IMG/VR virus record: IMGVR_UViG_3300026549_001501
Coordinates: 1 to 35,347 of that record
Strand: one strand, 5' to 3'
Length of the DNA stretch: 35,347 nucleotides
DNA from: a virus
Taxonomy: Duplodnaviria > Heunggongvirae > Uroviricota > Caudoviricetes
Shown: positions 1-30,722 of the stretch, in pieces
Position numbering within the stretch: the first letter of the stretch is position 1
Layout of the letters: the number at the start of each line of letters is the position of its first letter
The notes under the pieces: model-generated
Databases searched by the model: none
Seen by the model: the letters and a program-made list of their open reading frames with translations, nothing else
What the model was told of the DNA's origin: nothing
Program-made: the position numbers and the translations under genes

Positions 1-2
1 AA

Positions 3-2156
3 GGCAGCGAAGGTGCTGAAGGCACGCTCGGAGACACAGGCACCGCAGGTTACGAAGGAACACAGGGTGCACACGGAACGCAAGGTTCCATGGGTACTCA
101 GGGTAATGTCGGTGCTCAGGGCGCGATGGGTGCTCAGGGTGAGCAAGGCAGCAAGGGTGCTGATGGTACTCCCGGTGAAATAGGTACCACGGGTTCAACG
201 GGTACACAAGGTCCTAAGGGTACACAGGGTGTACGTGGTACACAAGGTAATACGGGCGTTCAGGCAGGAACAGGTGCACAAGGTGCCAAGGGTGGCAACG
301 GCGTAACAGGTACCGCAGCAGCAGCAGGTACTACAGGATGGGACGGTACACAGGGCCCTAAGGGTACACAGGGCGTACGTGGTACACAAGGTAATACGGG
401 CGTTCAGGCAGGAACAGGTGCACAAGGTGCCAAGGGTGGCAACGGGGCAACGGGTACCGCAGCAAATGCAGGTACTACAGGATGGGACGGTACACAGGGT
501 CCTCACGGTACACAAGGCCCTCGTGGTACACAAGGCAATACGGGCGCTCAGGCAGGAACGGGTGCTCAAGGCGGCAAAGGCGGCGGCGGCGCAACAGGTA
601 CTGCGGCAGATGCAGGTACCACGGGTTCAACGGGTACACAAGGTCCTAAGGGTACACAGGGTGTACGTGGTACACAAGGTAACACGGGTTCTCAGGCAGG
701 AACGGGCGCACAAGGCGGCAAAGGCAGCGGCGGTGCAACAGGTACTGCGGCAGCAGCAGGTACTACGGGATGGGACGGTACGCAAGGTCCTCGTGGTACA
801 CAAGGTTCTCGTGGTACGCAAGGTAACACGGGTTCTCAGGCAGGAACGGGCGCACAAGGCGGCAAAGGCGGCGGCGGCGCAACAGGTACTGCGGCATGGG
901 TAGGTACAGGTGGCCCTACAGGTACACAAGGCCCTATGGGCGCACAAGGCCCTCGTGGCACACAAGGTGGCACGGGAGCTCAGGGCGGTACAGGCGCACA
1001 AGGCGGCAAAGGCGGCGGCGGCGTAACGGGTACAGGCGGTTGGCAAGGTACGCAAGGCCCTCGTGGTACACAAGGCCCTCGTGGTACGCAAGGTGGCACA
1101 GGCGCACAAGGCGGTACGGGTGCTCAGGGTGCCAAGGGTGGCAACGGCGTAACAGGTACTGCGGCAGATGCAGGTACCACAGGTTCAACGGGTACACAAG
1201 GTCCTAAGGGTACACAGGGTGTACGTGGTACACAAGGTAACACGGGTTCTCAGGCAGGAACGGGCGCACAAGGCGGCAAAGGCAGCGGCGGTGCAACAGG
1301 TACTGCGGCAGCAGCAGGTACTACGGGATGGGACGGTACGCAAGGTCCTCGTGGTACACAAGGTTCTCGTGGTACACAAGGTAACACGGGTTCTCAGGCA
1401 GGAACGGGCGCACAAGGCGGCAAAGGCGGCGGCGGCGCAACAGGTACCGGTGGTTCAACGGGTACAGGCGGTTGGCAAGGTACGCAAGGCCCTCGTGGTA
1501 CACAAGGCCCTCGTGGTACACAAGGTGGCACGGGTGCTCAGGGCGGTACAGGCGCACAAGGCCCATCTGGCAATGGTGGTGCTAACGGAACACCTGGTGT
1601 TACAGGTACGGGTGGCGCGACTGGTACAATGGGATATGGTGGTACACAAGGTCCTCGTGGCACACAAGGTTCACGCGGTACACAAGGTTCATCCGGTTTA
1701 CAAGGATACAACGGAACTCAGGGTGTTGTAGGCACAACAGGTACGATTGTTAATTTAACAAAGAGCACCGCCCAAGCATTCCTTATTGGAAAAAATAGCA
1801 ATTCTGATGGATGGAATGGAGCATTTTACGTATCATCTGCGTATACCCAAAATGGAGCAGTTTATGAGGGCTCTGATGAAAAATTAAAAGATTTTTATGA
1901 TGATATTGAAATTGACTTCAATAAACTTCGTACGATTGTGAAGAAATATTTCACATGGAAGGGTGACGAAAATAAGGATATGCAAATTGGCGTCTCCGCT
2001 CAATCAGTACAAAAAGTTTATCCTGAGATAGTAAGTACAAATGAAATCGATGGCTATCTATCTGTTTCTTACGAAAAACTTGGAGTTATCGCTCTTGCAG
2101 CAATTGACAAGCTATATGAAAAGATAGAAAATCTCGAAAAGAAGCTCAATAATTAA
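3..2156 (+). CDS. Collagen-like tail/surface fibre protein with C-terminal peptidase S74 intramolecular chaperone; 5' end lies outside the window
   Basis: The frame is open from base 3 (GSEGAEGTLGDTGTAGYEGTQ...), so the ATG at 90 is internal. G-X-Y repeats run to about 1748. The C-terminal SDEKLK...FTWK...IGVSAQ...YPEIV...LSVSYEKL...IENLEKKL matches the S74 chaperone pattern. Confidence 0.85.
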   Translation, partial: GSEGAEGTLGDTGTAGYEGTQGAHGTQGSMGTQGNVGAQGAMGAQGEQGSKGADGTPGEIGTTGSTGTQGPKGTQGVRGTQGNTGVQAGTGAQGAKGGNGVTGTAAAAGTTGWDGTQGPKGTQGVRGTQGNTGVQAGTGAQGAKGGNGATGTAANAGTTGWDGTQGPHGTQGPRGTQGNTGAQAGTGAQGGKGGGGATGTAADAGTTGSTGTQGPKGTQGVRGTQGNTGSQAGTGAQGGKGSGGATGTAAAAGTTGWDGTQGPRGTQGSRGTQGNTGSQAGTGAQGGKGGGGATGTAAWVGTGGPTGTQGPMGAQGPRGTQGGTGAQGGTGAQGGKGGGGVTGTGGWQGTQGPRGTQGPRGTQGGTGAQGGTGAQGAKGGNGVTGTAADAGTTGSTGTQGPKGTQGVRGTQGNTGSQAGTGAQGGKGSGGATGTAAAAGTTGWDGTQGPRGTQGSRGTQGNTGSQAGTGAQGGKGGGGATGTGGSTGTGGWQGTQGPRGTQGPRGTQGGTGAQGGTGAQGPSGNGGANGTPGVTGTGGATGTMGYGGTQGPRGTQGSRGTQGSSGLQGYNGTQGVVGTTGTIVNLTKSTAQAFLIGKNSNSDGWNGAFYVSSAYTQNGAVYEGSDEKLKDFYDDIEIDFNKLRTIVKKYFTWKGDENKDMQIGVSAQSVQKVYPEIVSTNEIDGYLSVSYEKLGVIALAAIDKLYEKIENLEKKLNN
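201..1700 (+). repeat. Coding tandem array of about 11 units, mostly 144 bp (48 aa)
   Basis: The GTQGP(K/R/H/M) unit starts at 201, 345, 489, 633, 777, 921, 1047, 1191, 1335, 1479 and 1641. All spacings are 144 except one of 126 and one of 162. Confidence 0.9.
593..1447 (+). repeat. Near-identical 297-bp higher-order duplication (593-889 vs 1151-1447)
   Basis: Manual alignment at offset 558 shows two mismatches, both at third codon positions. Confidence 0.8.
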
Positions 2157-2177
2157 AAACACTAACATATTGCAATG

Positions 2178-2203
2178 AAACCGAGGTTAATCCTCGGTTT
2201 TTT
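2178..2203 (+). terminator. Intrinsic terminator after the fibre gene
   Basis: AAACCGAGG-TTAAT-CCTCGGTTT followed by further Ts. Confidence 0.85.
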
Positions 2204-2228
2204 GTTTACTAATGAGTGAAAAATTTTA

Positions 2229-2239
2229 TATTTATAATG
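2229..2239 (+). promoter_or_regulatory. TATTTATAATG motif, candidate phage-specific (late-type) promoter
   Basis: It sits directly upstream of the glycan operon ATG (2241). The same 11-mer lies upstream of the LAGLIDADG gene (26255-26265, - strand). Confidence 0.4.
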
Positions 2240-2240
2240 T

Positions 2241-3608
2241 ATGAAAAAGTCACAAATTTTATTTTGTATTCTTAATTATAAGCATAGTGAAAATGCGATA
2301 AAATGGGCAGAATCGTTAAAGAATGATTTTGCCGTTTCAATATTGGACACATATGTTTTAGATAACCCCGATTCTGACGATGCATTAAAGGATTATAAGG
2401 GTAATGTTTTATTTTTCCACAATATATATCTTGGCGGGATAACGCTTGAAGCATTTAAAATTTGTGTGGGCGGTGGATTCAAGTTTTTAGTGATAATAAC
2501 TTCGGATGTGGAGATAGATGAAGAAAATTTAGAACAATTAAAGAAGCATTTTGAAAATCTACCTGACAATATTGGGATATATGAGACAAGCACTACCATG
2601 AATAGTTGTGTAATGGGGGTTGTTGGTCCAATACCGTACACTGAGCGTTATTTTAGCCACAGTAATAAAGACTTCAAAGAGAATGGTTTAGCAGAGGGGT
2701 GGTTATATGGGATAAACGTTGAGTGTGTCAAAAAGATAATTCCGCATATTTTTCCCGAAAAGCATAAACACGGATGGGGAATAGGGGGTGCATTATTAAA
2801 TATTTCTAAATCTTTGGGGTATAGAAATGTTATTGATTCAAAGGTGTTTATTTATCATCCCAAAGGAACAGCATATAATGCATTAGATGCAAAACATGAA
2901 TGGTATGCATTTGACCGTACTTCTGAAAAAATAGGCATTTCTGACGCATTTATCACATTGGGGTTTTGTACAAAGGAGCACAACAAAGATTATATAAAAT
3001 ATATTGAATCATGTTTTTCTAATGCTTGCCCTATTATAGAGAAAGTATGCAACACAGATAATAAGGAAGAAATGCTTAAAGCATATAATGAGATAATAAA
3101 TGAATCTGTAACAAATGGTATTCTCCTGATTCAAGAAAACGCACGTTTCGCAAGTCGAGAAAACTATACGGATTTGTTTCAAAAAATCTTTTTTGAAAAT
3201 AAGCAATACGGTATTATAGGTTGCGCAGCAAAGTATGCCTTAGATGATGATATTGTAAAGAGGAATAATGGTGCAGTTTTCGGCTTTAATGAAGTCGAAG
3301 AAAATAATAGAATTTTTCGTTATGAAAGTAACCGTGGAGAAATGTTTTCGAAAGAAGTTTTTGAAGATGCCGTTTTAGATGGAAGATTTTTAGCAATACG
3401 GAAAGATAGAATTAAGCAATACTTTAACACGGCTGAGCTTGAGTTACCGTACGATGCAGAATTTTGCATTTCAAACTATTTGGAGGGGGTTAAAATTGGT
3501 GTTACAAAGGCGTTATGGCTTACTTATACAAAGAAAAATGCTATTATCCAATCAGAAACAGAAAGATTGAAAGAGAAATATAAAGATATTCTACCAATAA
3601 AGATATGA
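2241..3608 (+). CDS. Two-domain GT-A fold glycosyltransferase-like protein
   Basis: The N-terminus has a GT2-like start (ILFCILNYKHSENA), ITSDV and HGWGIG. The C-terminal half resembles Glyco_tranf_2_5 (KAYNEII...ILLIQEN...GIIGCA...VLDGRFLAI...YDAEFC). Confidence 0.6.
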   Translation: MKKSQILFCILNYKHSENAIKWAESLKNDFAVSILDTYVLDNPDSDDALKDYKGNVLFFHNIYLGGITLEAFKICVGGGFKFLVIITSDVEIDEENLEQLKKHFENLPDNIGIYETSTTMNSCVMGVVGPIPYTERYFSHSNKDFKENGLAEGWLYGINVECVKKIIPHIFPEKHKHGWGIGGALLNISKSLGYRNVIDSKVFIYHPKGTAYNALDAKHEWYAFDRTSEKIGISDAFITLGFCTKEHNKDYIKYIESCFSNACPIIEKVCNTDNKEEMLKAYNEIINESVTNGILLIQENARFASRENYTDLFQKIFFENKQYGIIGCAAKYALDDDIVKRNNGAVFGFNEVEENNRIFRYESNRGEMFSKEVFEDAVLDGRFLAIRKDRIKQYFNTAELELPYDAEFCISNYLEGVKIGVTKALWLTYTKKNAIIQSETERLKEKYKDILPIKI

Positions 3609-4261
3609 AAAGACTTACAAGGATAGCAAATATTTGTGACACTGATAAAGGCTCTGCGTGCGGGGACATGCACTGCTATACTGAATTTTATGAGCCTTAT
3701 TTTGAGAAATATGATAATCCGAACATATTGGAAATTGGAACATACAAAGGTGGTTCCGCAAAGATGTTTTCTAAGTTTTACGACGATGAATGTAAGATAT
3801 GGACGTGCGATTGTTATAGCGGTTTTGCTGAATCTGTTTCAGGGATGCCTAATGCTACCTTTATTGAGCTAAATCTTGAATATAAGGATGATATTAAAAA
3901 ACTCCACGACTATTTTAAAAATGAAGGAATAGAGTTTGATATAATTATAGATGACGCATCTCACGTTTGGCAACATCAAATGAATGCAATATCCGGCTTT
4001 CATGATTTGCTTAAAGAAGGCGGAATATATATTATAGAAGATTTGAATTATTCCCTAATATGGACGGATCCGGAAAACAGCCCTTTGTATTTCATAAATT
4101 TTCAGCAAGAAAACATAATGCTCACCAACGAAGAATATGCTGAGTTGAAATCAAAGATGAAGGATGTAGTAATTTTCAATAGGAAGAACGAATCTACTGA
4201 CACTATGAAAGAACGCTTTGGAGGAAGAAGTATAACATCGATAATAACATTTGAAAAATAA
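3605..4261 (+). CDS. Class I SAM-dependent methyltransferase (sugar O-methyltransferase-like)
   Basis: TDKG...HCYTEFYE, ILEIGTYKGGS (motif I), FDIIIDDASH, LLKEGGIYIIEDL. ATGA overlap with the upstream gene. Confidence 0.8.
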   Translation: MKRLTRIANICDTDKGSACGDMHCYTEFYEPYFEKYDNPNILEIGTYKGGSAKMFSKFYDDECKIWTCDCYSGFAESVSGMPNATFIELNLEYKDDIKKLHDYFKNEGIEFDIIIDDASHVWQHQMNAISGFHDLLKEGGIYIIEDLNYSLIWTDPENSPLYFINFQQENIMLTNEEYAELKSKMKDVVIFNRKNESTDTMKERFGGRSITSIITFEK

Positions 4262-4262
4262 T

Positions 4263-5264
4263 ATGAAAAAAAGTGTTTTAATAACGGGTAATGCGGGGCT
4301 CCTTGGCTCCCGTTTTGCAGATTGGATTCTCGAAAATTACCCCGAATACGAGGTTGTCGGTATTGATAATCTGTTTGGCGGATACATTGAGAACGTTGAC
4401 GATAGGGTTGTTTTTTATAAGAGAGAACTTTCCCTTGATTCTGTTAAGGACATATTCGATAAGCACGAATTTGAATATGTTTTTCATTTTGCTGCGTATG
4501 CTGCAGAAGGGCTTTCCCCCTTCATGCGAAAATTTAATTATTCCAACAATGTGCTTAGCACGGTAAATATTATTAACGAGTGTATTTCCCATAAGGTTAA
4601 AAGGCTAATATACACGTCTTCAATGTCTGTTTATGGATGGGGACTTGAGCAGGGAAGAGTATTTGATGAAAATGATCGCCCTGAGCCGATTGACCCCTAT
4701 GCCATTTCAAAATATGCTTGCGAAATGGATATAAAAGTGGCGGGTGAGCAACATGGGCTTGACTGGTGTATTATACGCCCTCACAACGTTTACGGCATCA
4801 AGCAGAATATATGGGACAAATATCGCAATGTCCTTGGTATTTGGATGTATCAAATCCTCAATGATAAGCCAATGCTTATTTATGGCGACGGTGAACAGAC
4901 CAGGGCATTTAGTTATATAGATGATTGTCTTGAGAGTTTCTGGAATGCTGCAGTACTTGACGACGCATCGAAGCAAATAATTAACGTTGGCGGCGAAGTT
5001 GGAATTTCCATTAATGAAGCAGCAAAAACGCTGTGTACTATTACGGGGTACAATAATATAGAGCATAAAGAAGCGAGGCACGAGGTTAAATACGCAGTGC
5101 CGTCCCCCGAGAAATCCAAACGAATTCTTGGCTACAAGCAAAGCACAAATCTTGAAAAAGGGCTTACCGAAATGTGGAAATGGGCGCAAATGCAGCCTAA
5201 TCGCAAACAGTATCGGTGGGAAAATTATGAAATAACTGACGGAATATACAGCTATTGGAAATAA
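4263..5264 (+). CDS. NAD-dependent NDP-sugar epimerase/dehydratase (extended SDR)
   Basis: ITGNAGLLGS (GxxGxxG), VFHFAAYAAE, YTSSMSVYG, YAISK (YxxxK), RPHNVYG, IYGDGEQTRAFSYIDD. The ATG at 4263 is preferred to the ORF-track TTG at 4251. Confidence 0.92.
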   Translation: MKKSVLITGNAGLLGSRFADWILENYPEYEVVGIDNLFGGYIENVDDRVVFYKRELSLDSVKDIFDKHEFEYVFHFAAYAAEGLSPFMRKFNYSNNVLSTVNIINECISHKVKRLIYTSSMSVYGWGLEQGRVFDENDRPEPIDPYAISKYACEMDIKVAGEQHGLDWCIIRPHNVYGIKQNIWDKYRNVLGIWMYQILNDKPMLIYGDGEQTRAFSYIDDCLESFWNAAVLDDASKQIINVGGEVGISINEAAKTLCTITGYNNIEHKEARHEVKYAVPSPEKSKRILGYKQSTNLEKGLTEMWKWAQMQPNRKQYRWENYEITDGIYSYWK

Positions 5265-5286
5265 CATTTTTTTAAGAGCAAAGTTA

Positions 5287-6900
5287 ATGGAAAAAATAGG
5301 TAAGAAGCTTGTTTTCCATTTTTATATTGGAAAGGATGGTATAAACACTGAGTGCAATCGGCTTCATTTCAAATGCCTTGAACATTACGCAAAGAGCATT
5401 TTTAATAATGTTCTGTTTGCTATCGTTGTTGATGATGCAGAAGCGCAGAAAGATGAAATAATAGCGTTAGAAGAAAAAATAGTAGGTATTTTTGATACAC
5501 AAGAATTAGAAATTAAGGTTAATAACAACACATACTTACGGGATTCAAGAACATTTTATGATGAGGTTGCTATGAAGTTAAAGGATACAGAAGAAATTGT
5601 GTTCTTTGCTCATAATAAAGGAACAACCAACGTTGAAAAATTTGAGAGGGAAAAAATCATGAAATGGGTTGCTGCAATGTACTTTGCTTGTTTCAATGAT
5701 ATGAATGAAGTGGAATGGGCTCTAACTGATTGCAGAATGGCAGCATATGGCGGCTTATTGAACATAGTAGATAAGAATATAATAGAAAGAACGCCGCTTT
5801 TGGGCATGGAATTGGGTAAAAACGCCTTTTTGTATACGGGAACATTTTTTTGGATGAACCCAAGGACCATTTACGAATATATGGAAAATAATGGCGTTGA
5901 ATTACCGCAAATAAATGATAGGTGGTATGCTGAGAATTTTTTGGCAAATATTGTTCCACAAAATGCTTGCACATCACTTAAAGATTGGCGAGCAGTAAAC
6001 TATTTGGACGCTCATGATAAGATTTTGGATCTCATCAAATTGTCTTTTACTGAAGAGTCCTTTATTGAATTAAATAAATTTTATAAAACAATGGGTATTG
6101 TGAAGGACGAAAGTACACCCGTAATAGAAATTGTATACATTGCGACAAACAATTATATAAACTATATGCAGCAATTCTTAGATAGCATTCAATATTTCTA
6201 TCCGGGGGCAAGAAAGATATTGAAAATCCTCACAAATCACGACATTAAGGTTGAACCGCCATGTGACGATGTTATTAAATGTGAGGTGATAAAAATGTTT
6301 GATTTGTTTTACCCTTGCATCAACCTCCATAAAACAAAATTCATAGAACAGCTTAAGCACGAAGATATAGTTGATTATATATTTTATTTTGATGCTGATA
6401 CAAAATTCATAAATAATCCCGATTATGATTGGGAAGGTTTAAGGCGAAGCATGGAACAGGGGTATTTTATCATGTCGCCACACCCGATTTATTTGATAAA
6501 AGATGAAGAATGGAAACATGCGTTTCTTAATAATTTATATCATAACGGCATTACTGACAGATTGGAAACCCTTGCTGCGGCAATCCCGTCAGATGAATAT
6601 ACTTATGTTATTTCATCGTTCTTCTGTGGAAAAAAGGATACAATGCTCCACGTGTGCAAAGGCATAAATGAAATGATAAAGTCGGATATGGTATGGCAGA
6701 AATGGTATCATATACCAAGATTTTCGGATGAGAATTATTTTAATAAGCTTGTTTACAATCGTGAGCATGGTTTAGATAAAACTTATTGCATTCGTGTTGA
6801 CTTCTTTACGTGTATTGAAGAATTAGATAATAATATCCCGCCAACGGTATTCATTTACCAAAAAGGTATGGATGAAAAATTTAAATCAGAAAAAAGATAA
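5287..6900 (+). CDS. Fusion of an unassigned HxKG/GTFFW domain (N-terminal) and a GT6-like glycosyltransferase (about 6121-6900)
   Basis: N-terminal FFAHNKG, YTGTFFWMN, RWYAENF. C-terminal IVYIATNNYINYMQQFLDSIQYFY, YIFYFDADT (DxD) and SDENYFNK parallel the GT6 motifs. Confidence 0.65.
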   Translation: MEKIGKKLVFHFYIGKDGINTECNRLHFKCLEHYAKSIFNNVLFAIVVDDAEAQKDEIIALEEKIVGIFDTQELEIKVNNNTYLRDSRTFYDEVAMKLKDTEEIVFFAHNKGTTNVEKFEREKIMKWVAAMYFACFNDMNEVEWALTDCRMAAYGGLLNIVDKNIIERTPLLGMELGKNAFLYTGTFFWMNPRTIYEYMENNGVELPQINDRWYAENFLANIVPQNACTSLKDWRAVNYLDAHDKILDLIKLSFTEESFIELNKFYKTMGIVKDESTPVIEIVYIATNNYINYMQQFLDSIQYFYPGARKILKILTNHDIKVEPPCDDVIKCEVIKMFDLFYPCINLHKTKFIEQLKHEDIVDYIFYFDADTKFINNPDYDWEGLRRSMEQGYFIMSPHPIYLIKDEEWKHAFLNNLYHNGITDRLETLAAAIPSDEYTYVISSFFCGKKDTMLHVCKGINEMIKSDMVWQKWYHIPRFSDENYFNKLVYNREHGLDKTYCIRVDFFTCIEELDNNIPPTVFIYQKGMDEKFKSEKR

Positions 6901-8357
6901 TGGCAAATAATTTTTATATTTTTTTAAATGAATATCCGTCAATTGATTTAGCGGGTGCGGCAATTTATTCGTTTTTGAAAAAATATTACCTTTATAATGA
7001 CGCAATCTTTGTTGTTTATGATGATATCTCAAAAGAGGATAAGAATCTGTTAACAAGAATATATTATAAATTAGCATTCAAAAAATTTGCAAAGGATTTC
7101 GTCATTGACGGTAAAAATATATCTCAATTTGATTCCACGTTTACTTCAGAACAAATTCAGTCTAATGTGGAATTGTTAAAGGATTTTGAAGATTGGAAAA
7201 CAAATTATTCTTTTAGAAATAATATTGCATTTCCGAAACATCTTGAGGACTCTGACAAATATATTGTTTTTACCTGTGCAAAAGGCGAAAACGATTATAT
7301 CGTTGAATGGGTAGAACATTATCTTAACCTTGAGTTTGATAAGATTATTATTTGCGATAACAATGATGATGATTCATTGTTGGGTATACTTGCTGAGTAT
7401 ATAGACTGCGGACGGGTTGAGATTTTTGACTGTCGAGGCTTTACAGAAATTCAGGAAAGGGCATTTCAGATGTTTTGCGAGGAGGGAAATTATAAATGGT
7501 GCGCATATTTTGACTGCGATGAATTCCTTGAACTTGGGGTGTATTCAAGTATAAAAGAATACACTGGCACAAAAACAGAAGATTGCTTGGCATTTAACTG
7601 GGTGATGTACGGCTCAGATGGGCAGTTAGACAAGAAAGACATCAAGTTATCAGAAAGATTTAAAAAGCCATCCTTGCCTTTATCAAGCATTTATAATATG
7701 TTCTTAAAGGGAATAGTGAGAGGTGGCAGATTCAGGTTTAGGCATATAGAATTCAGGGGTGGGCATTTACCCTATCCTATTGATGATACTAAACAAAGTA
7801 ACACTTTCAGTATCGGGGGTTATTACACAACGGACGTTGCGCCGTTTCAAACGTCATCCCCGTTAAGATATAAAGAAGGATATATTAAGCACTACTACAC
7901 GAAGTCGTTTGAAGAGTGGATAGACAAAGCAAAGCGTGGATGGCCGCTTGACACTGATTCGCTTCCATTTTATAGATATTTTGCCCTTAAGGGTACAAAT
8001 AATATGCCTTCCAATTTTTTTGAAAAAAATCTATTTTTAAAGGACGATTGGTTTGTAACAAATACGAAGAGCATGTTAGAATTCCTTCAAAATAACGAAA
8101 TCGTTGAATTGGCGAGGAGCAAGAGTTCAGTTTATGGATTTACATCATTAGTGCTTTATGTCATGAGTCAAGTCAGCGGAAAAATAATTTTAGTTAAATG
8201 TGAAGATATTAACGATTTTTTATTCACAATAATGTTGGAATATGCATTTATTACCGATAATAAAGTAATATATTGTAAAAATGACAACGAAGTTGACATT
8301 GCGTATCGCAAATATAGAAAATCTGAAGAATCTGTTTATTTTTGGGAGTTAATATAG
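6900..8357 (+). CDS. GT92/Glyco_tranf_2_4-like glycosyltransferase with an N-terminal extension
   Basis: CAKGENDYIVEWVEHYLNLEFDKIIICDNND, WCAYFDCDEFL, FNWVMYG, IKHYYTKSFEEW. Confidence 0.8.
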   Translation: MANNFYIFLNEYPSIDLAGAAIYSFLKKYYLYNDAIFVVYDDISKEDKNLLTRIYYKLAFKKFAKDFVIDGKNISQFDSTFTSEQIQSNVELLKDFEDWKTNYSFRNNIAFPKHLEDSDKYIVFTCAKGENDYIVEWVEHYLNLEFDKIIICDNNDDDSLLGILAEYIDCGRVEIFDCRGFTEIQERAFQMFCEEGNYKWCAYFDCDEFLELGVYSSIKEYTGTKTEDCLAFNWVMYGSDGQLDKKDIKLSERFKKPSLPLSSIYNMFLKGIVRGGRFRFRHIEFRGGHLPYPIDDTKQSNTFSIGGYYTTDVAPFQTSSPLRYKEGYIKHYYTKSFEEWIDKAKRGWPLDTDSLPFYRYFALKGTNNMPSNFFEKNLFLKDDWFVTNTKSMLEFLQNNEIVELARSKSSVYGFTSLVLYVMSQVSGKIILVKCEDINDFLFTIMLEYAFITDNKVIYCKNDNEVDIAYRKYRKSEESVYFWELI

Positions 8358-8358
8358 T

Positions 8359-9519
8359 ATGGAAGAGTTTTATCATTTTCAAACGGATGTTATTGATACA
8401 TATTTTAGAAAGGATCCCGCAGATGCGGAGAAATACATTGTTTGCGCGTGTGCAAAAAATGAAAACGATTATATCGTTGAATGGATAGAACATTATCTCA
8501 ATCTCGGGTTTGATAAAATTATTATTTGCGATAACAATGATGATGATTCGTTGGAAGCAATTGTCGCAGATTACACGTCCCGAGGGGTGGTTGAAATTTT
8601 TAACTGCCGTAATTTTGGCTCTTTTCAGGTTCAGTTCTATTCAATGTTCTGTACGGAAGGAAACTACAAATGGTGTGCATATTTTGACTGCGATGAATTC
8701 CTTGAATTAGGTACATATTCAAACATAAAAGAGTACCTTGAAACAAAGCCAAATGATATTTGTGTTTCATTTAACTGGCTGATGTACGGAAGTGGTGGAG
8801 AATACTCAAAAAAAGAAGGTGGCGTACAGGAAAGATTTAAACTACCTATATCGCCGATATCATTATTCACTGAAAATTGTTTTGTGAAATCTATCGTCAG
8901 GGGTGGCGACGTGTTTAAAAATGGCTGTTGGTTCAACGGTTCACACATACCTATTACAACGCCAATGTTTTGGCATAATGTAGGAGGATATTATCAAAGT
9001 AACAACAATTCGCACATGTACTTCGTTCCTCGTTATAAGGAAGGATATTTAAAGCACTATTATACAAAATCTTTTGAGGAGTGGATAAAGAAAGCGGGAA
9101 GGGGTTGGCCTGACGGAACGGATAAGCTCAAATGCAAAAATTATTTTGTGATGTCTGATTGGGCAAATTTCCCTTTAGATCAGATGAGGCGCGGGCTATT
9201 TTCGGAAGAAACAAACTATTCATCCGAAGGATATGTGGAACTTTTGGAAAATTTTGATATTATTAAAATAAGGAATAGCAATGAGCGAGTGTATGCTTTA
9301 ATAATGGGCGCATTTAATTTAATGTATAATACCACCGGGCACACGTTCTGTGTTGGCGACCCACATATAGATGATACCCTTTATAACTTACTTTTTGAAT
9401 ATGCGTTAAGAACCGGCAATAAGTTAGTGTGGACACCTACAGACGATGATGTGTGGCGTGTTTACGAAACATACAGTGATAAACGTAATCCAACATACTA
9501 TATTATAGATTTCATGTAA
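8359..9519 (+). CDS. GT92/Glyco_tranf_2_4-like glycosyltransferase, paralogue of 6900-8357
   Basis: CAKNENDYIVEWIEHYLNLGFDKIIICDNND, WCAYFDCDEFL, FNWLMYG, LKHYYTKSFEEWIKKAGRGWP. Confidence 0.8.
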   Translation: MEEFYHFQTDVIDTYFRKDPADAEKYIVCACAKNENDYIVEWIEHYLNLGFDKIIICDNNDDDSLEAIVADYTSRGVVEIFNCRNFGSFQVQFYSMFCTEGNYKWCAYFDCDEFLELGTYSNIKEYLETKPNDICVSFNWLMYGSGGEYSKKEGGVQERFKLPISPISLFTENCFVKSIVRGGDVFKNGCWFNGSHIPITTPMFWHNVGGYYQSNNNSHMYFVPRYKEGYLKHYYTKSFEEWIKKAGRGWPDGTDKLKCKNYFVMSDWANFPLDQMRRGLFSEETNYSSEGYVELLENFDIIKIRNSNERVYALIMGAFNLMYNTTGHTFCVGDPHIDDTLYNLLFEYALRTGNKLVWTPTDDDVWRVYETYSDKRNPTYYIIDFM

Positions 9520-9521
9520 TT

Positions 9522-10988
9522 ATGATAAGAACAAGTGCAATAAATTATTTAATTAAAAGCCGTGGCTATAAAAGTTATTTAGAAATAGGACTATCTTGGC
9601 CTCACTTTAATTATAACAAGATAAAATGCGAGCATAAAGAATCTTGTGACCCGTACTTTCCTTCAACTCGTGATTCTCTTGCAACCAGAGATAACCTTCC
9701 TGATGAAATAAAGGAAGCTCTTACATATCTAATGACATCAGACGAAATGTTTGATGCTATGCCCGAAGATAAAAAGTATGATATTATTCTTATTGATGGC
9801 TTACATACTGAGGGACAATGCTGCAAGGATATAGCGAATTCAATGGCACACTTAAATCCGGGTGGTGTTATTTTAGTGCATGATACAATTCCGGCTAATA
9901 AGAAGTCACAAGAGGAGGATAGTGATGAACTATTATGGGTTGGCACTGTATGGAAGTCAGTAGTTAAATTAAACAACACCAATATAACATTTCACACAAT
10001 TAAAGAAGATGTCGGATTGACAATAATAGATTACAACCCAACGCCCGATTTTACGGGGTATTTCGAGCCAAGTGGATATGAATTTGAAGATGACTTTTCA
10101 ACAAACGCTGTACATCTCATAACTGATAGGGAGTTTCGTGATATGTATCGCCCGATGGGGCTGTTTAAAACGGGTGAACCGCTTAATTTAATAGTGTATA
10201 TTGATATTGATGAGAATTCAAGAACACTATCACATTCGCTTAAAACACATTTTCACTGTATAGAGTATTATAAGAACCTGTTTTCAAGTGTAACCTTTAT
10301 TCTTGGTGTCGACAAGGACTGTGATGCCGCCATTGAGAATATTTACCGAGATAAGATTTTTTCTATTGGTTTTAATTGCAATATTGCGATAAAGTTAATA
10401 AAAAAGAATATATTTGGAGGGGGCTCGGTATTTTACACCGAAATAGCGAATAAATTGAACGAACTTAATGGACTTACAGCATTTATTAATTGCGAAAAAG
10501 GTTCAATAAGTGATGAAAAAAGAGTTATGGATTCGGACATTAAACGAATAATCTCTTCATATTACCAAATGTTTGAGGATCCGGATTTTGTTAGATTTGC
10601 CCTGTTAAAGAAGCAAAATGGAGTATGCTACGGCGCATTTGCATTTTTTGGCGATTCTGTACCCACGAAGAACAAGTGGTACTATTATGGCGGTTTTCAA
10701 TGGATAAACACCAAGAAATTGTACAAGTATATGGAAGAAAATAATATTTCTTTACCTAACTTGGAAAGCAAAACATTTGATGAGGAATTTCTTCCATCTA
10801 TATTGCCCATGGATTACTCGTTAATTAGCTCTTGGGATGACAGGTATATAACATCTGATATCTCAATTATGAATGAAAATTCAAATAGTTCAAGCGTTTT
10901 TATTTTGGAAGAAAACGATAGCTATTTTACATATGATTGTTTTGTGGAAGACGTATATAATATATTATGCATACCTTTAAACGATTAG
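9522..10988 (+). CDS. Fusion of a class I methyltransferase (Methyltransf_24-like) and a diverged copy of the unassigned domain (about 10180-10988)
   Basis: N-terminal YKSYLEIG, KYDIILIDGLH, HLNPGGVILVHD. C-terminal THFHCIEYY...FINCEKG...YYGGFQWIN...FDEEF. Confidence 0.7.
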   Translation: MIRTSAINYLIKSRGYKSYLEIGLSWPHFNYNKIKCEHKESCDPYFPSTRDSLATRDNLPDEIKEALTYLMTSDEMFDAMPEDKKYDIILIDGLHTEGQCCKDIANSMAHLNPGGVILVHDTIPANKKSQEEDSDELLWVGTVWKSVVKLNNTNITFHTIKEDVGLTIIDYNPTPDFTGYFEPSGYEFEDDFSTNAVHLITDREFRDMYRPMGLFKTGEPLNLIVYIDIDENSRTLSHSLKTHFHCIEYYKNLFSSVTFILGVDKDCDAAIENIYRDKIFSIGFNCNIAIKLIKKNIFGGGSVFYTEIANKLNELNGLTAFINCEKGSISDEKRVMDSDIKRIISSYYQMFEDPDFVRFALLKKQNGVCYGAFAFFGDSVPTKNKWYYYGGFQWINTKKLYKYMEENNISLPNLESKTFDEEFLPSILPMDYSLISSWDDRYITSDISIMNENSNSSSVFILEENDSYFTYDCFVEDVYNILCIPLND

Positions 10989-11782
10989 TATACCACCTTT
11001 TTCTATATGACGGGTGTTTCGATTCGAATGTATATAAATTACATTTGGCATGCTTGGCGTATTTTGCGAAAATTTTTGATCAGGCAATTTTTGTGCTCGC
11101 AATAGACGACACGGATAATCGGGATTTAATTAAAACAGCAGAGAAAACACTTTTAAAGAATATTCCGATACGAGATATTAAATTCATTGTTGAAAAAAAT
11201 AATGATTTTCGTGAAGCTTCAACATTTTATGAACAAATAGCAAAAAAACTTGAGAGTTTGGACGGTGTTACATTCTTTGGACATATAAAGGGCGCGAGTA
11301 ACGAGTTTAATCCAAATATTGATATATGGCAGGTGTATAACTGGATAATTGCCGTTTATTTTTTTAGCTTGTTTTACATGGATGAAGTAATATGGTATCT
11401 TATAACAAGCCCAAGTTTTAATACTTATGGCTCCCTTAAGTGCAAATGGGAAAATATAGAAAACAAATACTCATGGCTGTATTCGGGCACCTTTTTCTGG
11501 ATAAATGGGCAACGCACCGCTGCATTTATGAAAAAAAATGAAATAGAATTACCACCGCTCAACAACAGATATTGTGCTGAAACATTTTGTGGTAATATAT
11601 TTAAATTTAATAATGCAGAGGCCGGTTCTCATAAATGTTTTCACTATGTTGCAAGTTCGGACGTCTTGTTTTTAAATTGGTATAAATACGCTGAGGCATT
11701 TATTGAGGATTTTCTTGATGATGATACCAAGGATGATTATTATAATTTTAGAGCTGAAATGCTAAAAACAATTGAAATATGA
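10967..11782 (+). CDS. Standalone unassigned HxKG/GTFFW-domain protein (putative glycan-modifying enzyme)
   Basis: LVYHLF...LHLACLAYF...ASTFYEQIA...FFGHIKG...LYSGTFFWIN...RYCAETF, collinear with the N-terminus of 5287-6900. Confidence 0.55.
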   Translation: MHTFKRLVYHLFLYDGCFDSNVYKLHLACLAYFAKIFDQAIFVLAIDDTDNRDLIKTAEKTLLKNIPIRDIKFIVEKNNDFREASTFYEQIAKKLESLDGVTFFGHIKGASNEFNPNIDIWQVYNWIIAVYFFSLFYMDEVIWYLITSPSFNTYGSLKCKWENIENKYSWLYSGTFFWINGQRTAAFMKKNEIELPPLNNRYCAETFCGNIFKFNNAEAGSHKCFHYVASSDVLFLNWYKYAEAFIEDFLDDDTKDDYYNFRAEMLKTIEI

Positions 11783-13011
11783 GAAACAAAATATCAGCAG
11801 TTATTATAGACAAGAAAAAAAGCGAGCACGATTATGACAAAGTCATAACTTATTATCTTCCTGAATGGGTAGAGCGTAAATATGATATTGCTGTGTATGA
11901 TAATGCGGATAATATTCTTTCTAAATTAAACATTAACCGTGGGTTTGATTGCATCATAACCGTGGGCGATATTGGCAATTTTGATGAATTAAATGCCCTT
12001 CCGTATGAAATTCGTAGAAAATGGTGCCATGTAGAGGAATTTAATGAGAAAAAACTCTCTGATTTAATTATAAACACATTCCTTTTGAATAATGGGCGTG
12101 AGGGCGACGATAAATTGTTCTCAATCTTTACCTGCACATTCAATACCCCCAAATCGGTTATATTAAGACTCTATGAGTCACTAAAAAGACAAACTTACAG
12201 GAATTGGAATTGGTGGATACTTGATGATAGTAAATCCCCTACCACTGCAGAGTATATTGAAAAATTGCATGACCCAAGGATAACCGTTTTTAGAAATTTT
12301 ACTAATCATGGTAATATTGGCTTCAATAAACATTCAATCGCAATGCTTTGCAATGGGGATTATCTTGTAGAAGTGGATCACGACGATGAATTGACGTCCG
12401 ACTGCCTTGAAAAATTGCTTGAATGCTATGAACAATCTGACGCTGACTTCGTGTATTCGGATTGCCTTGAAATTATTGACGGCGCCCCCATATGGTACGG
12501 AGACAACTTTTCATTTGGGCAGGGCTATTACCGCGATGAAACTGTAGAAGGCGTAGAATATAAGAACGTTGCTATAACGTGCAGGAACATCAACGTAAAA
12601 AGCATTAGGGGCATTTATGCGTTACCTAATCATATTAGAACTTGGAAGAAGGAATTCTATCATCAAATTGGTGGGCACTATCCTGAATTGTCCGTATTGG
12701 ATGATATGGATGTTGTAATAAGAACATTCCTTAAAGGGAAAATTGCAAAGGTTGATAAAGTCCTTTATATTCAGAATCAGGGCGAATCTCGGGCTAATGG
12801 GCGCGGTGACACCGCAACGGGTAGTCGCTTGAACGAGATTGCACGTACCAATATACTCTTGAAGTGGAAATACGAGGTACCAATTCATGAACGCATTCTT
12901 GAACTTATTGGCGAAGACCCTGTTTGGAATGAAGAGATAAAAGAAAGTGACGTTTATAAGGAAATAAATCCTGAAGATTTGAAGCCGATGGATTGTTTGA
13001 TTATAAAATAA
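11779..13011 (+). CDS. GT2 family glycosyltransferase with about 110-aa N-terminal extension
   Basis: FSIFTCTFNT, YRNWNWWILDDS, GDYLVEVDHDD (DxD), LDDMD. ATGA overlap with the upstream gene. Confidence 0.88.
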   Translation: MRNKISAVIIDKKKSEHDYDKVITYYLPEWVERKYDIAVYDNADNILSKLNINRGFDCIITVGDIGNFDELNALPYEIRRKWCHVEEFNEKKLSDLIINTFLLNNGREGDDKLFSIFTCTFNTPKSVILRLYESLKRQTYRNWNWWILDDSKSPTTAEYIEKLHDPRITVFRNFTNHGNIGFNKHSIAMLCNGDYLVEVDHDDELTSDCLEKLLECYEQSDADFVYSDCLEIIDGAPIWYGDNFSFGQGYYRDETVEGVEYKNVAITCRNINVKSIRGIYALPNHIRTWKKEFYHQIGGHYPELSVLDDMDVVIRTFLKGKIAKVDKVLYIQNQGESRANGRGDTATGSRLNEIARTNILLKWKYEVPIHERILELIGEDPVWNEEIKESDVYKEINPEDLKPMDCLIIK

Positions 13012-13047
13012 ACAAAAACCGCAGGAGTAAATCCTGCGGCTTTCTTT
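13012..13047. terminator. Probable bidirectional terminator between convergent blocks
   Basis: CCGCAGGA-GTAAA-TCCTGCGG (13019-13039), with an A-run on the left and a T-rich tract on the right, between the stops at 13011 and 13048. Confidence 0.8.
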
Positions 13048-21075: not shown

Positions 21076-21091
21076 TGGCTATTTTATTTTT

Positions 21092-25202: not shown

Positions 25203-25256
25203 AAAAAACGCCCACTTATTGTGGGCTGATAATAAAAAAGGCTACATTTCGTAGCC
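25203..25256 (-). terminator. Two tandem intrinsic terminators after the homing endonuclease
   Basis: - strand GGCTAC-GAAAT-GTAGCC-TTTTTT (25240-25256, overlapping the stop) and GCCCAC-AATAA-GTGGGC-GTTTTTT (25210-25226). Confidence 0.7.
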
Positions 25257-26240: not shown

Positions 26241-26254
26241 ATCAGTTCTCTTTT

Positions 26255-26265
26255 CATTATAAATA
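26255..26265 (-). promoter_or_regulatory. TATTTATAATG motif upstream of the endonuclease
   Basis: Exact match to 2229-2239. Confidence 0.4.
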
Positions 26266-26316
26266 CTTTCATTTTTTAAAATATACTAAAAAATAGTGAA
26301 AAAATAACAAAAAAGC

Positions 26317-26344
26317 AAAAAAAAGTTCCGCATTTCTGCGGAAC
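26317..26344 (-). terminator. Intrinsic terminator after the RNA ligase
   Basis: - strand GTTCCGCA-GAAA-TGCGGAAC followed by a long T-run. Confidence 0.85.
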
Positions 26345-26348
26345 CTTT

Positions 26349-27740: not shown

Positions 27741-27810
27741 TTTTTAAAAGTTTTAATTGTTAATTATTTTCTCCGCACCACCTGCATTTAAGGATATGCA
27801 GGAAACCATA

Positions 27811-30720: not shown

Positions 30721-30722
30721 AT

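What the first reader, a model, noticed from the sequence alone, without database searches (positions are those of the whole stretch)
3..13011. Candidate phage-encoded virion glycosylation system: Thr-rich collagen fibre followed by a 9-gene glycan operon
Seen: nine overlapping or abutting genes with at least five GT-like domains, two methyltransferase domains, an NDP-sugar epimerase/dehydratase and three copies of an unassigned domain. They directly follow a fibre gene whose repeats (GTQ, GTT, GTA, GVT) are packed with Thr. Established: the Bacillus anthracis collagen-like BclA is O-glycosylated on GXT repeats with methylated deoxysugars, and some phages and giant viruses glycosylate their virions. 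Inference: this phage builds a multi-sugar, partly O-methylated glycan on its own fibre or capsid, for shielding from antibodies or proteases, mucus binding, or host recognition.
Basis: partly seen in the sequence, partly recalled or inferred. Interest (0 to 1): 0.85.

Follow-up and report, generated by a model that had tools for sequence, protein, structure and literature searches.

The report
Megaphage collagen fibre with glycosylation cassette
An uncultured giant phage from the cattle rumen carries a threonine-rich collagen-like tail-fibre gene followed by nine soluble sugar-handling enzyme genes, and related phages keep this pairing, so the phage probably sugar-coats its own fibre, although no glycan has been measured.

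Summary
The window is the start of a 138.7-kb viral contig. It begins inside a collagen-like fibre gene (193 Gly-X-Y triplets, 18% Thr, 3% Pro) that ends in a Peptidase_S74 chaperone domain.

Nine co-directional genes follow. I count nine GT-A-type glycosyltransferase domains, not five:
- two in g2;
- a GT6 domain with DAD and a conserved Asp-Glu;
- two GT92-like paralogs;
- one GT2;
- three copies of the "unassigned" domain, which AlphaFold2 shows to be a divergent GT-A fold from a mostly viral family.

There are also two methyltransferase domains, one nearest to sugar O-methyltransferases, and an SDR enzyme of the 4-epimerase type.

None of the nine has a membrane helix. The contig has no priming phosphoglycosyl transferase, no multi-pass membrane protein and no thymidylate-synthase-like gene.

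In at least 11 of 12 assessable related cassettes a collagen fibre gene abuts or sits inside the cassette, even where gene order and domain fusions differ.

The acceptor is inferred, not shown. Smaller modules with the new domain occur without collagen genes. I found no deoxysugar pathway.

This scan has noted similar fibre-plus-transferase pairings in many other phage genomes.

Verdict: a new variant of virus-encoded virion glycosylation. Confidence about 0.5. Interest moderate.

The parts
3..2156 (+). g1: collagen-like tail-fibre gene, cut at its 5' end by the contig end (717 aa seen)
   Evidence: PF01391 at E 9e-43. PHROG tail-fibre families reach E 2e-54. The non-collagen C-terminus alone hits the C-termini of many PHROG tail-fibre families (to 3e-17).
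3..1739 (+). Collagen-like region: 193 G-X-Y triplets in roughly nine copies of a 144-nt (48-aa) unit; 18% Thr, 3% Pro
   Evidence: GC is 54-61% here against about 33-38% in the cassette, driven by amino-acid composition.
1872..2153 (+). Peptidase_S74 intramolecular chaperone domain, starting at the SDEKLK autocleavage-type motif
   Evidence: PF13884, 26.3-30.1 bits (cut-off 22), profile positions 1-57, starting at residue 624.
2177..2201 (+). Terminator-like hairpin plus T-run between the fibre gene and the cassette
   Evidence: 10-bp stem. Six relatives keep it at the same position with different, complementary stems. RNA-library contigs of one sample stop at 2174/2185 and resume at 2256/2285, while DNA contigs bridge the gap (weak hint).
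2241..3608 (+). g2: double GT-A protein (N-terminal half GT2-like, C-terminal half Glyco_tranf_2_5)
   Evidence: PF13712 at 30.3 bits (cut-off 27) on residues 270-438. N-terminal half: Atlas feature score 0.98 to viral glycosyltransferase clusters and TM 0.7-0.77 to GT2 clusters.
3605..4261 (+). g3: class I SAM methyltransferase, candidate sugar O-methyltransferase
   Evidence: PF13578 at 28.1 bits (cut-off 26.3); phrog_21658. Nearest solved chains are the sugar O-methyltransferases TylE (8ia9) and MycE (3ssm), E 2e-6.
4251..5264 (+). g4: extended-SDR NDP-sugar enzyme, 4-epimerase type
   Evidence: PF01370 at E 3e-40. Best solved relative is the UDP-hexose 4-epimerase 4zrm, E 9e-45, followed by UDP-GlcA 4-epimerases and UXS. 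The motifs YTSSMSVYG and Y150-x3-K lack the acidic pair of 4,6-dehydratases (the motif rule is from my own knowledge).
5287..6900 (+). g5: the new GT-A domain (domX, residues about 1-260) fused to a GT6 domain (about 270-537; DAD at 369-371, Asp-Glu at 481-482)
6900..8357 (+). g6: GT92/GT2_4-like glycosyltransferase with an extra 100-aa N-terminus; paralog of g7
   Evidence: PF13704 at 55.9 bits; PF01697 at 23.4 bits (cut-off 23); 46% identical to g7; DCDEF motif.
8359..9519 (+). g7: GT92/GT2_4-like glycosyltransferase
   Evidence: PF13704 at 60.9 bits; PF01697 at 44.4 bits. Weak PDB sequence hit to the flagellin O-GlcNAc transferase GmaR, E 0.013, a lead only.
9522..10988 (+). g8: Methyltransf_24 domain (N-terminal) fused to domX (residues about 237-431)
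10967..11782 (+). g9: domX alone, a divergent GT-A fold from a mostly viral family
   Evidence: 393 clusters at E<=1e-3 among 1.8 billion representatives. No Pfam or PDB sequence match. AF2 pLDDT 96.9. GT-A fold at Z 8-10 with no family standing out. Atlas clusters at TM 0.88-0.91 are 88-94% viral.
11779..13011 (+). g10: GT2 glycosyltransferase with N- and C-terminal extensions; found in every related cassette whose downstream end was seen
   Evidence: PF00535 at 74.6 bits; 47-85% identity across relatives.
13014..13044 (.). Bidirectional terminator-like hairpin between the cassette and the convergent 2675-aa gene
   Evidence: RNA-library contigs break here (12987-12989 to 13054-13101) while a DNA contig bridges it.

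Best explanation
The nine genes are a phage-encoded, cytoplasmic glycosylation cassette that acts stepwise. It builds a multi-sugar, partly O-methylated oligosaccharide directly on a phage protein, most likely on Thr/Ser of the adjacent collagen-like tail fibre.

Proposed steps (all inferred):
1. The SDR enzyme g4 converts host UDP-Glc or UDP-GlcNAc into the 4-epimer (UDP-Gal or UDP-GalNAc).
2. One of the GT-A enzymes primes Thr/Ser on the fibre. g10 is found in every related cassette whose downstream end was seen. g2 follows the fibre gene in this sub-lineage.
3. The GT92-like pair, the GT6 domain (a retaining alpha-1,3-Gal/GalNAc transferase type) and the three domX domains extend the chain.
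4. The methyltransferases g3 and g8-N O-methylate sugars. The g8 fusion may cap the sugar that its own domX domain adds, as the chlorovirus protein A064R does.

The fibre trimerises with the help of its C-terminal S74 chaperone. Cleavage at Ser624 would then release the chaperone and leave only about 44 non-collagen residues at the tip. A glycan coat would therefore dominate the exposed surface.

Gene content and domain fusions differ from phage to phage, as in a glycan-diversity locus.
For: Shown:
- Enzyme identities.
- Nine GT-A-type domains, including three copies of a mostly viral GT-A family. Pattern scans found 2 loci in about 185,000 prokaryote genomes and 32 loci in IMG/VR.
- No membrane helix in any of the nine proteins.
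- No ORF with four or more hydrophobic segments, no Bac_transf priming enzyme, and all GT2 hits confined to this cassette within the 138.7-kb contig.
- The only collagen-like gene of the contig lies directly upstream.
- A collagen fibre with the same S74-type C-terminus abuts the cassette in the window, L009, L012, L013/14, L015, L017, L022, L023, L027 and L032.
- In L033 and L037 the collagen fibre gene lies inside a split cassette with a different gene order; only the L037 fibre matched the S74-type C-terminus.
- In L015 the fibre stop codon overlaps the first cassette start codon.
- RNA-library contigs from a bovine sample cover both the fibre 3' end and the whole cassette, and break at the two predicted terminators where DNA contigs bridge (weak hint).

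Precedents:
- SgtA, encoded next to bclA3, puts beta-O-GlcNAc on Thr of the collagen repeats (PMC7157674).
- BclA carries oligosaccharides on its collagen-like region (Daubenspeck 2004, cited in PMC9614988).
- Chlorovirus A064R is a GT+GT+methyltransferase protein that builds the capsid glycan (PMC9614988).
- Mycobacteriophage capsid and tail-tube subunits are glycosylated (Freeman 2023, as cited in PMC12619734).
Against: - No glycan, acceptor or enzyme activity has been measured.
- No member of a known protein-priming transferase family (SgtA/OGT, TibC-type, GtfA/B) was recognised.
- All loci with the large cassette belong to one broad group of rumen megaphages (SDR 68-92% identical), so conserved synteny is only partly independent evidence.
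- A terminator-like hairpin separates the fibre gene from the cassette in most relatives.
- The module lies beside replication and nucleotide-metabolism genes, not in a recognised structural block.
- One large cassette (L034/L035) has no collagen gene within 10 kb. About 18 contigs carry a small SDR + methyltransferase + domX module without a collagen gene.
- Ser+Thr content of the paired fibres ranges from about 3% to 24%.
- Only 61% of the genome is held, so the absence of flippase or priming genes is provisional.
Confidence: 0.5

Rival explanations
1. The cassette glycosylates phage virion proteins other than the collagen fibre. Candidates are the capsid, the tail, or the convergent 2675-aa LRR/CotH protein. 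The fibre would be only a conserved neighbour.
For: - In the known phage case, the capsid and tail-tube subunits are the acceptors (Freeman 2023, as cited in PMC12619734).
- Small domX modules occur in phages without a nearby collagen gene; one lies 6 kb upstream of a baseplate wedge gene.
- The giant gene is as conserved a neighbour as the fibre in the core lineage.
- A terminator separates the fibre from the cassette.
Against: - In L033 and L037 the gene order changed, yet the collagen gene stayed embedded in the cassette and no ORF over 1500 aa lay within the locus.
- The giant protein and the LTD protein have no Ser/Thr-rich tracts comparable to the fibre (best 40-residue window 38%, in an LRR region).
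Confidence: 0.15
2. The cassette remodels a host envelope glycan such as LPS O-antigen, capsule or another lipid-linked polysaccharide. It would extend host undecaprenyl-linked intermediates at the inner face of the membrane and rely on host flippases, for superinfection exclusion or receptor masking.
For: - GT2, GT92-like, GT6, GT8, GT25 and DUF4422 enzymes, NDP-sugar epimerases and sugar methyltransferases are typical contents of O-antigen and capsule loci.
- The nearest NCBIfam hits of g10 are WcaA and TuaG types, far below cut-off.
- The nearest solved relative of the GT6 domain is the Bacteroides enzyme BoGT6a.
- Content varies from strain to strain, as in surface-polysaccharide loci.
Against: - No priming transferase, flippase, polymerase, ligase or exporter appears in the cassette, in any of the related cassettes examined, or in the 138.7 kb held.
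- domX is nearly confined to viral contigs. One of its two prokaryote-genome hits is a fibre-plus-cassette contig binned into a rumen MAG.
- Known phage serotype converters are small membrane-bound sets (my own knowledge).
Confidence: 0.2
3. The enzymes hypermodify phage DNA with glycans to evade restriction.
For: Phage glycosyltransferases that decorate DNA bases with one to several sugars are known (Pyle 2024, as cited in PMC12619734).
Against: - No thymidylate-synthase-family hydroxymethylase was found in the contig held.
- Nine GT-A domains plus sugar-type methyltransferases, placed beside a fibre gene, are unlike the known DNA-glycosylation sets.
Confidence: 0.03

Closest known systems
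BclA (Bacillus anthracis exosporium) and BclA3-SgtA (Clostridioides difficile)
   Same: A Thr-rich, collagen-like surface filament is encoded next to its glycosyltransferase gene(s). O-glycans sit on Thr of the collagen repeats, and in Bacillus the glycan carries methylated sugars (PMC7157674; Daubenspeck 2004, cited in PMC9614988).
   Different: - Those are spore proteins with GPT repeats (Thr in the Y position). Here Thr is mostly in X (GTQ) and Pro is only 3%.
- SgtA is a single O-GlcNAc transferase; no SgtA homolog was recognised here.
- There are no rhamnose, anthrose or other deoxysugar genes here.
- This cassette has nine GT-A domains.
Mycobacteriophage virion glycosylation (Freeman et al. 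2023, Cell Host Microbe; known here through citations in PMC12619734 and PMC11256854)
   Same: Phage-encoded glycosyltransferases modify the phage's own structural proteins in the host cytoplasm.
   Different: - There, one or two transferases act on the C-termini of the capsid and tail-tube subunits of siphoviruses of actinobacteria.
- Here there is a 9-gene (8-15 genes in relatives) cassette, a collagen fibre as candidate acceptor, and a rumen megaphage, probably of Bacteroidota.
- A tblastn search with g10 found no mycobacteriophage homolog.
Chlorovirus PBCV-1 capsid glycosylation (A064R, A111/114R, A061L)
   Same: A virus-encoded, host-independent, cytoplasmic pathway uses multidomain GT-GT-methyltransferase proteins, an orphan metal-independent transferase domain, and O-methyl capping of terminal sugars (PMC9614988, PMC7826918). 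A 638-aa viral protein of unknown name is among the BFVD matches of domX; A064R is also 638 aa, but I did not check their identity.
   Different: That is a eukaryotic algal virus with N-linked glycans on the major capsid protein and rhamnose/xylose/fucose chemistry. No sequence-level homology was shown here.
Serine-rich-repeat adhesin glycosylation islands of streptococci (GtfA/B, Gtf3, dGT1/GalT1 and others)
   Same: Several soluble GT-A enzymes encoded beside a Ser/Thr-repeat fibre build an oligosaccharide on it in the cytoplasm, step by step. g10 has a weak hit to GalT1 (5hea), E 1e-3.
   Different: No GtfA/B-type GT-B priming pair and no accessory Sec system. The acceptor here is a collagen triple-helix protein, not an SRR region. 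The comparison rests mostly on my own knowledge.
CAZy family GT6 (ABO transferases, alpha-1,3-galactosyltransferase, Bacteroides ovatus BoGT6a)
   Same: The C-terminal domain of g5 has the GT6 fold, matches BoGT6a by profile (E 5e-11), and keeps the Asp-Glu of the catalytic motif.
   Different: - It scores below the Pfam gathering threshold (15.6 against 25 bits).
- It has DAD where BoGT6a has NAN, so it resembles the metal-dependent vertebrate enzymes.
- It is fused to domX here, fused to GT92 in L013, and free-standing in other relatives.

Membership tests
Phage collagen-like tail fibre with C-terminal S74 intramolecular chaperone | Long uninterrupted Gly-X-Y repeat region | tested here: met
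   193 triplets with register kept throughout (179 Gly, 14 Ala at position 1). PF01391 at 144 bits.
Phage collagen-like tail fibre with C-terminal S74 intramolecular chaperone | Peptidase_S74 domain above the curated cut-off, with the Ser-Asp cleavage motif at its start | tested here: met
   26.3-30.1 bits against a cut-off of 22. The profile starts at S624-DEKLK, and the motif is conserved in relatives (SDENWK, SDETLK, SDERWK). Cleavage itself was not tested.
Phage collagen-like tail fibre with C-terminal S74 intramolecular chaperone | N-terminal virion-attachment domain, or presence in virions | not testable with these tools
   The gene is cut by the contig end. The complete relative in L013 has a 95-aa N-terminus with no Pfam or PHROG match.
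CAZy GT6 (C-terminal domain of g5) | GT6 fold and sequence-profile relationship | tested here: met
   All top-50 Foldseek hits are GT6 (E 1e-14, TM 0.61-0.66). The profile matches BoGT6a at E 5e-11.
CAZy GT6 (C-terminal domain of g5) | DXD/NXN nucleotide-sugar motif and the catalytic Glu of the (H)DE motif | tested here: met
   DAD at 369-371 and Asp481-Glu482 are invariant in 35 homologs and align to the NAN and DE motifs of BoGT6a.
CAZy GT6 (C-terminal domain of g5) | Pfam PF03414 gathering score | tested here: not met
   15.6 bits against a cut-off of 25. It is a divergent relative, not a curated member.
Virus-encoded virion protein glycosylation (mycobacteriophage / chlorovirus type) | Viral glycosyltransferases encoded with or near structural genes | tested here: met
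   The cassette directly follows a tail-fibre-type gene here and in at least 11 related cassettes.
Virus-encoded virion protein glycosylation (mycobacteriophage / chlorovirus type) | Glycan demonstrated on a virion protein | not testable with these tools
   Needs glycoproteomics or staining of virions.
BclA/SgtA-type collagen O-glycosylation | Thr in collagen triplets plus an adjacent transferase gene | tested here: met
   106 Thr in 193 triplets (45 in Y as in GPT, 61 in X). The first transferase gene starts 84 nt downstream of the fibre stop codon.
BclA/SgtA-type collagen O-glycosylation | Homolog of the known priming enzyme (SgtA) or of rhamnose/anthrose genes | tested here: inconclusive
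   No Pfam, NCBIfam or PDB hit pointed to OGT/SgtA-like enzymes or Rml enzymes. No SgtA sequence was available for a direct comparison.
Lipid-carrier-dependent surface polysaccharide locus (O-antigen / capsule) | Priming phosphoglycosyl transferase | tested here: not met
   No PF02397 match in the 138.7-kb contig. PF00953 was not searched. Only 61% of the genome is held.
Lipid-carrier-dependent surface polysaccharide locus (O-antigen / capsule) | Flippase/polymerase or ABC exporter (multi-pass membrane proteins) | tested here: not met
   No ORF in the contig has four or more hydrophobic 19-mers, and none of the nine genes has any. The test is a crude Kyte-Doolittle scan.
Phage DNA base glycosylation | Base hydroxymethylase (thymidylate-synthase family) supplying the acceptor | tested here: not met
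   No PF00303 match in the contig. The genome is incomplete.

The most novel reading that the evidence does not exclude
Rumen megaphages carry a hypervariable, virus-specific glycan-diversity locus. It is built largely from a glycosyltransferase family that is almost confined to viruses (domX), together with a DXD-type GT6 and GT92-like galactosyltransferases.

The locus would write strain-specific, methyl-capped oligosaccharides onto a collagen fibre. These might resemble alpha-Gal or blood-group epitopes.

The fibre's protein tip is only about 44 residues after chaperone cleavage. The glycan, not a protein domain, would then be the working surface of the fibre, serving adhesion, host recognition or protection in the gut.
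Probability: 0.25. Interest if true: 0.8.

Novelty: new variant of a known kind. Interest (0 to 1): 0.55.

Why it matters
Virion glycosylation by phage-encoded enzymes has been demonstrated only for a few mycobacteriophages, where it uses one or two transferases.

If this cassette acts on the fibre, it would be a far more elaborate, strain-variable glycan system in gut and rumen megaphages. Such a system bears on how phage particles meet hosts, mucus, proteases and immune systems, and on the reading of phage "auxiliary" carbohydrate genes.

The work also assigns a fold (GT-A) to a sizeable, mostly viral, previously unassigned protein family. It identifies a phage GT6 with the vertebrate-type DXD motif.

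Tried and rejected
- Megablast of the cassette against GenBank phages found nothing. tblastn with g5 and g10 found only distant single-gene hits in huge uncultured phages and in Synechococcus phage S-CRM01. Their surroundings showed no collagen gene or cassette.
- The search for related loci with single proteins found nothing. The 79-sequence alignment was too diverse for pattern search, so a 15-sequence alignment was used instead.
- Pfam, NCBIfam and PDB sequence searches gave nothing for domX or for g2.
- Structural searches for domX showed the GT-A fold but no single nearest family (Z 8-10). Nucleotidyltransferases such as IspD and GlmU score alongside glycosyltransferases. I rejected the nucleotidyltransferase reading because the N-terminal Gly-rich loop is absent, but that is a judgement.
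- A shared promoter motif (variants of TATATTTA) upstream of the cassette in relatives could not be tied to a gene class in the genome. No TAnnTTTG motif lies in the fibre-cassette spacer.
- PHROG annotation around the small domX modules (L042, L039) gave only a baseplate wedge gene 6 kb away and unnamed proteins.
- The genome search on the related loci and on "relatives" is not available for these records. PF27674 (DUF8361), named by the Atlas for 10% of one domX cluster, is not in the Pfam copy held.
- Freeman et al. 2023 could not be read.
- Contig depths in the RNA libraries cannot rank expression and were not used for that. Parts of the collagen repeats had no RNA-library cover, which proves nothing.
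- I did not run complex prediction, because an enzyme-substrate pair is a poor use of that test.

Full report
**Where the window lies.** The window is bases 1-35347 of a 138,689-bp linear IMG/VR viral contig that CheckV rates 61% complete. All three stop codons are used and 86% of the contig is coding under table 11. Public runs holding the sequence are almost all bovine gut or rumen metagenomes: 20 runs in 14 studies. Related contigs reach 290-376 kb, so this is a rumen megaphage.

**The fibre (g1, 3-2156).**
- The ORF is open at the contig start. Its first 579 residues are one unbroken Gly-X-Y register of 193 triplets. Position 1 is Gly in 179 of them and Ala in 14, and the Ala triplets recur every 48 residues.
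- Thr makes up 18.3% (61 in X, 45 in Y; GTQ occurs 36 times). Pro is 3.3% and Ser 3.3%.
- The DNA is a 144-nt unit repeated about nine times at 75-84% identity. This explains why this contig and most related contigs break inside the gene.
- The last 138 residues match the C-termini of many PHROG tail-fibre families (to 3e-17). They contain a Peptidase_S74 intramolecular chaperone domain whose profile starts at S624-DEKLK.
- By analogy with endosialidase-type fibres (my own knowledge), cleavage there would leave about 44 non-collagen residues at the mature tip.
- It is the only collagen-like gene in the contig.

**The nine genes (2241-13011).** They overlap by 1-22 nt or are 1-22 nt apart.

| Gene | Reading | Evidence |
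|---|---|---|
| g2 | Two GT-A halves: Glyco_tranf_2_5 above cut-off in the C-terminal half; N-terminal half GT2-like |; Atlas features 0.98 and model TM 0.7-0.77, |
| g3 | Methyltransf_24; nearest solved relatives are the sugar O-methyltransferases TylE and MycE (E 2e-6) | |
| g4 | Extended SDR; best solved relative a UDP-hexose 4-epimerase (4zrm, 9e-45), then UDP-GlcA 4-epimerases and UXS | |
| g5 | domX fused to a GT6 domain | |
| g6, g7 | 46% identical GT92/GT2_4-like enzymes with a DCDEF motif | |
| g8 | Methyltransf_24 fused to domX | |
| g9 | domX alone | |
| g10 | GT2 with extensions at both ends | |

The motif YTSSMSVYG with Tyr150-x3-Lys in g4 lacks the acidic residues of 4,6-dehydratases (the rule is from my own knowledge). 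None of the nine proteins has a segment hydrophobic enough for a membrane helix.

**The "unassigned domain" (domX).**
- The three copies share 27-31% identity.
- An exhaustive profile-free search found 393 clusters at 50% identity, mostly free-standing proteins of about 265 aa.
- Neither Pfam nor PDB sequences match.
- AlphaFold2 on a 79-sequence alignment gave pLDDT 96.9.
- The fold is GT-A, the nucleotide-diphospho-sugar transferase fold. AFDB glycosyltransferase clusters score TM 0.64. An all-against-all structural search gave Z 8-10 to many GT-A families with none standing out.
- The nearest ESM Atlas clusters (TM 0.88-0.91) are 88-94% viral.
- Pattern scans found 2 loci in about 185,000 prokaryote genomes against 32 in IMG/VR. 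One of the two "prokaryote" loci is itself a fibre-plus-cassette contig binned into a yak-rumen Paludibacteraceae MAG.
- Nearly invariant residues include His106, Lys108 and Gly109 at the end of the strand where GT-A enzymes usually carry DXD, and Glu205. This hints at a metal-independent mechanism, which is inference.

**The GT6 domain.**
- A profile of 35 homologs matches Bacteroides ovatus BoGT6a (4ayj) at E 5e-11 and the ABO transferases more weakly.
- The AF2 model (pLDDT 91) returns only GT6 structures in the Foldseek top 50 (E 1e-14, TM about 0.65).
- DAD (369-371) aligns with NAN of BoGT6a, and Asp481-Glu482 aligns with the catalytic DE.
- Pfam PF03414 scores below its cut-off. The domain is a divergent GT6 relative of the DXD, vertebrate-like type.

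**Comparative genomics.**
- Homologs led to contigs from several rumen and gut studies. In the window, L009-L012, L013/14, L015, L017, L022, L023, L027 and L032 the order is fibre (same S74-type C-terminus), then a cassette of roughly 5 to 15 genes.
- A convergent gene of about 2600-2700 aa closes the cassette in the window, L009, L010, L012, L013/14, L019, L022 and L023.
- L013 gives a complete fibre gene.
- In L015 the fibre stop codon overlaps the first cassette start codon.
- In L033/L036 and L037 (344- and 302-kb contigs) the gene order is different, yet the collagen gene lies inside a split cassette.
- L019 could not be assessed, because the locus starts inside the cassette. L034/L035 has no collagen gene within 10 kb.
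- Thus 11 of 12 assessable large cassettes are next to a collagen fibre gene.
- Cassette content is fluid. domX occurs in 2-6 copies. GT6 is fused to domX, fused to GT92, or free. The g8-type methyltransferase is fused to domX, fused to GT92, or free. Extra GT8+GT92, GT25, GT4-like, DUF4422, UDP-glucose dehydrogenase and UDP-galactopyranose mutase genes appear in some relatives.
- The SDR stays 68-92% identical and g10 stays 47-85% identical across relatives. This is the pattern of a glycan-diversity locus.
- Limits: all these phages are kin, and fibre Ser+Thr content falls from 24% to 3% in the most distant pairs. About 18 other viral contigs carry only SDR + methyltransferase + domX with no collagen gene nearby.

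**Transcription signals.**
- A 10-bp hairpin plus T-run follows the fibre stop codon (2177-2201). A bidirectional hairpin closes the cassette (13014-13044).
- Six relatives keep the first hairpin at the same place with different but complementary stems.
- Two RNA-library runs from one bovine sample have contigs covering the fibre 3' end and all nine genes. These contigs stop at 2174/2185, resume at 2256/2285, and break again at 12987-13101. DNA-run contigs bridge both places.
- This is a weak hint that the fibre and the cassette are separate transcription units, both expressed. DNA carry-over cannot be excluded.

**What is absent.** The 138.7 kb held has no Bac_transf priming enzyme, no ORF with four or more hydrophobic segments, no GT2 outside the cassette, and no thymidylate-synthase-like hydroxymethylase. 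With 39% of the genome missing, these are provisional.

**Interpretation.**
- The enzymology (shown by homology) says that a multi-sugar, probably Gal/GalNAc-containing and partly O-methylated glycan is made in the cytoplasm without lipid-carrier export machinery.
- The acceptor is inferred. The adjacent collagen fibre is the best candidate, for three reasons:
  - the pairing survives rearrangement;
  - the fibre offers 125 Ser/Thr in 579 residues;
  - adjacent-gene O-glycosylation of collagen repeats has a direct precedent (SgtA-BclA3, PMC7157674; BclA).
- Virus-encoded cytoplasmic glycosylation with GT-GT-methyltransferase fusions has a precedent in chloroviruses (PMC9614988). Phage virion glycosylation has one in mycobacteriophages (Freeman 2023, via PMC12619734).
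- My probabilities: about 0.5 for the fibre as acceptor, 0.15 for other virion proteins, 0.2 for host envelope glycans, 0.03 for DNA, and the rest unknown.

**Novelty.**
- The idea of virus-encoded virion glycosylation is known. This scan has already recorded many phage collagen-fibre-plus-transferase pairings on other DNA, mostly with TibC- or SgtA-like enzymes.
- This case is new in four respects:
  - the scale and variability of the cassette;
  - its enzyme families (domX, DXD-type GT6, GT92-like);
  - the lack of any recognised protein-priming transferase;
  - the setting in rumen megaphages.
- I class it as a new variant of a known kind.

Noticed in passing
window 13048-23884 (- strand): Convergent with the cassette lies a 2675-aa protein with a weak CotH kinase match (28 bits, residues 1107-1224) and Ser/Thr/Asn-rich leucine-rich-repeat-like tracts. 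Beyond it is a 930-aa lamin-tail-domain plus metallophosphoesterase protein. Neither has a PHROG match. In most relatives the giant gene is as conserved a neighbour of the cassette as the fibre is.
   Followed up: partly
window 25242-31837 (- strand): An RNA-repair-like cluster: endonuclease, RNA ligase, polynucleotide kinase/ATPase, tRNA-His guanylyltransferase (Thg1-like) and phosphoesterase (PHROG hits). A full-length Hsp70/DnaK homolog lies at 32032-33873 (692 bits).
   Followed up: no
window 2157-2240, and the matching spacers of L009, L012, L013, L017, L022, L023: The hairpin after the fibre gene is conserved in position but not in sequence; the stems differ and stay complementary. It is followed by an AT-rich motif resembling GTATATTTA about 10-30 nt before the first cassette start codon. 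This may be a phage promoter; I could not tie it to a gene class.
   Followed up: partly
L041-L059 (IMG/VR contigs; for example L042 7934-10242): About 18 viral contigs of another lineage carry a compact three-gene module: an SDR about 60% identical to g4, a methyltransferase, and domX. No collagen gene lies within 10 kb. In L042 a baseplate wedge gene lies 6 kb downstream on the same strand.
   Followed up: partly
L039 6631-7515: In a further lineage, a 294-aa protein with a near-pure poly-Ser N-terminal tract (75% Ser/Thr over 40 residues) lies 2.5 kb upstream, on the same strand, of a transferase cluster with two domX genes. It may be a different kind of Ser-rich acceptor.
   Followed up: partly
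L015 16939-18264; L019 2126-3247; L023 13813-14595: Related cassettes carry extra sugar-nucleotide and transferase genes: UDP-glucose dehydrogenase (L015), UDP-galactopyranose mutase, which implies galactofuranose (L019), and a GT25 enzyme, the family of collagen galactosyltransferases (L023).
   Followed up: no
L027 (JAGCWQ010000115.1, filed as a Paludibacteraceae MAG from yak rumen): This 29.7-kb contig, filed in a bacterial MAG, starts with the same fibre C-terminus and a 13-gene cassette. It is probably phage DNA binned with, or integrated or co-varying with, a Bacteroidales genome, which is a weak host hint.
   Followed up: no
window 1-2000: GC content is 54-61% in the collagen gene against about 32-39% in the cassette. 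The difference follows from Gly, Thr, Ala and Gln codons and is not a sign of foreign origin.
   Followed up: yes
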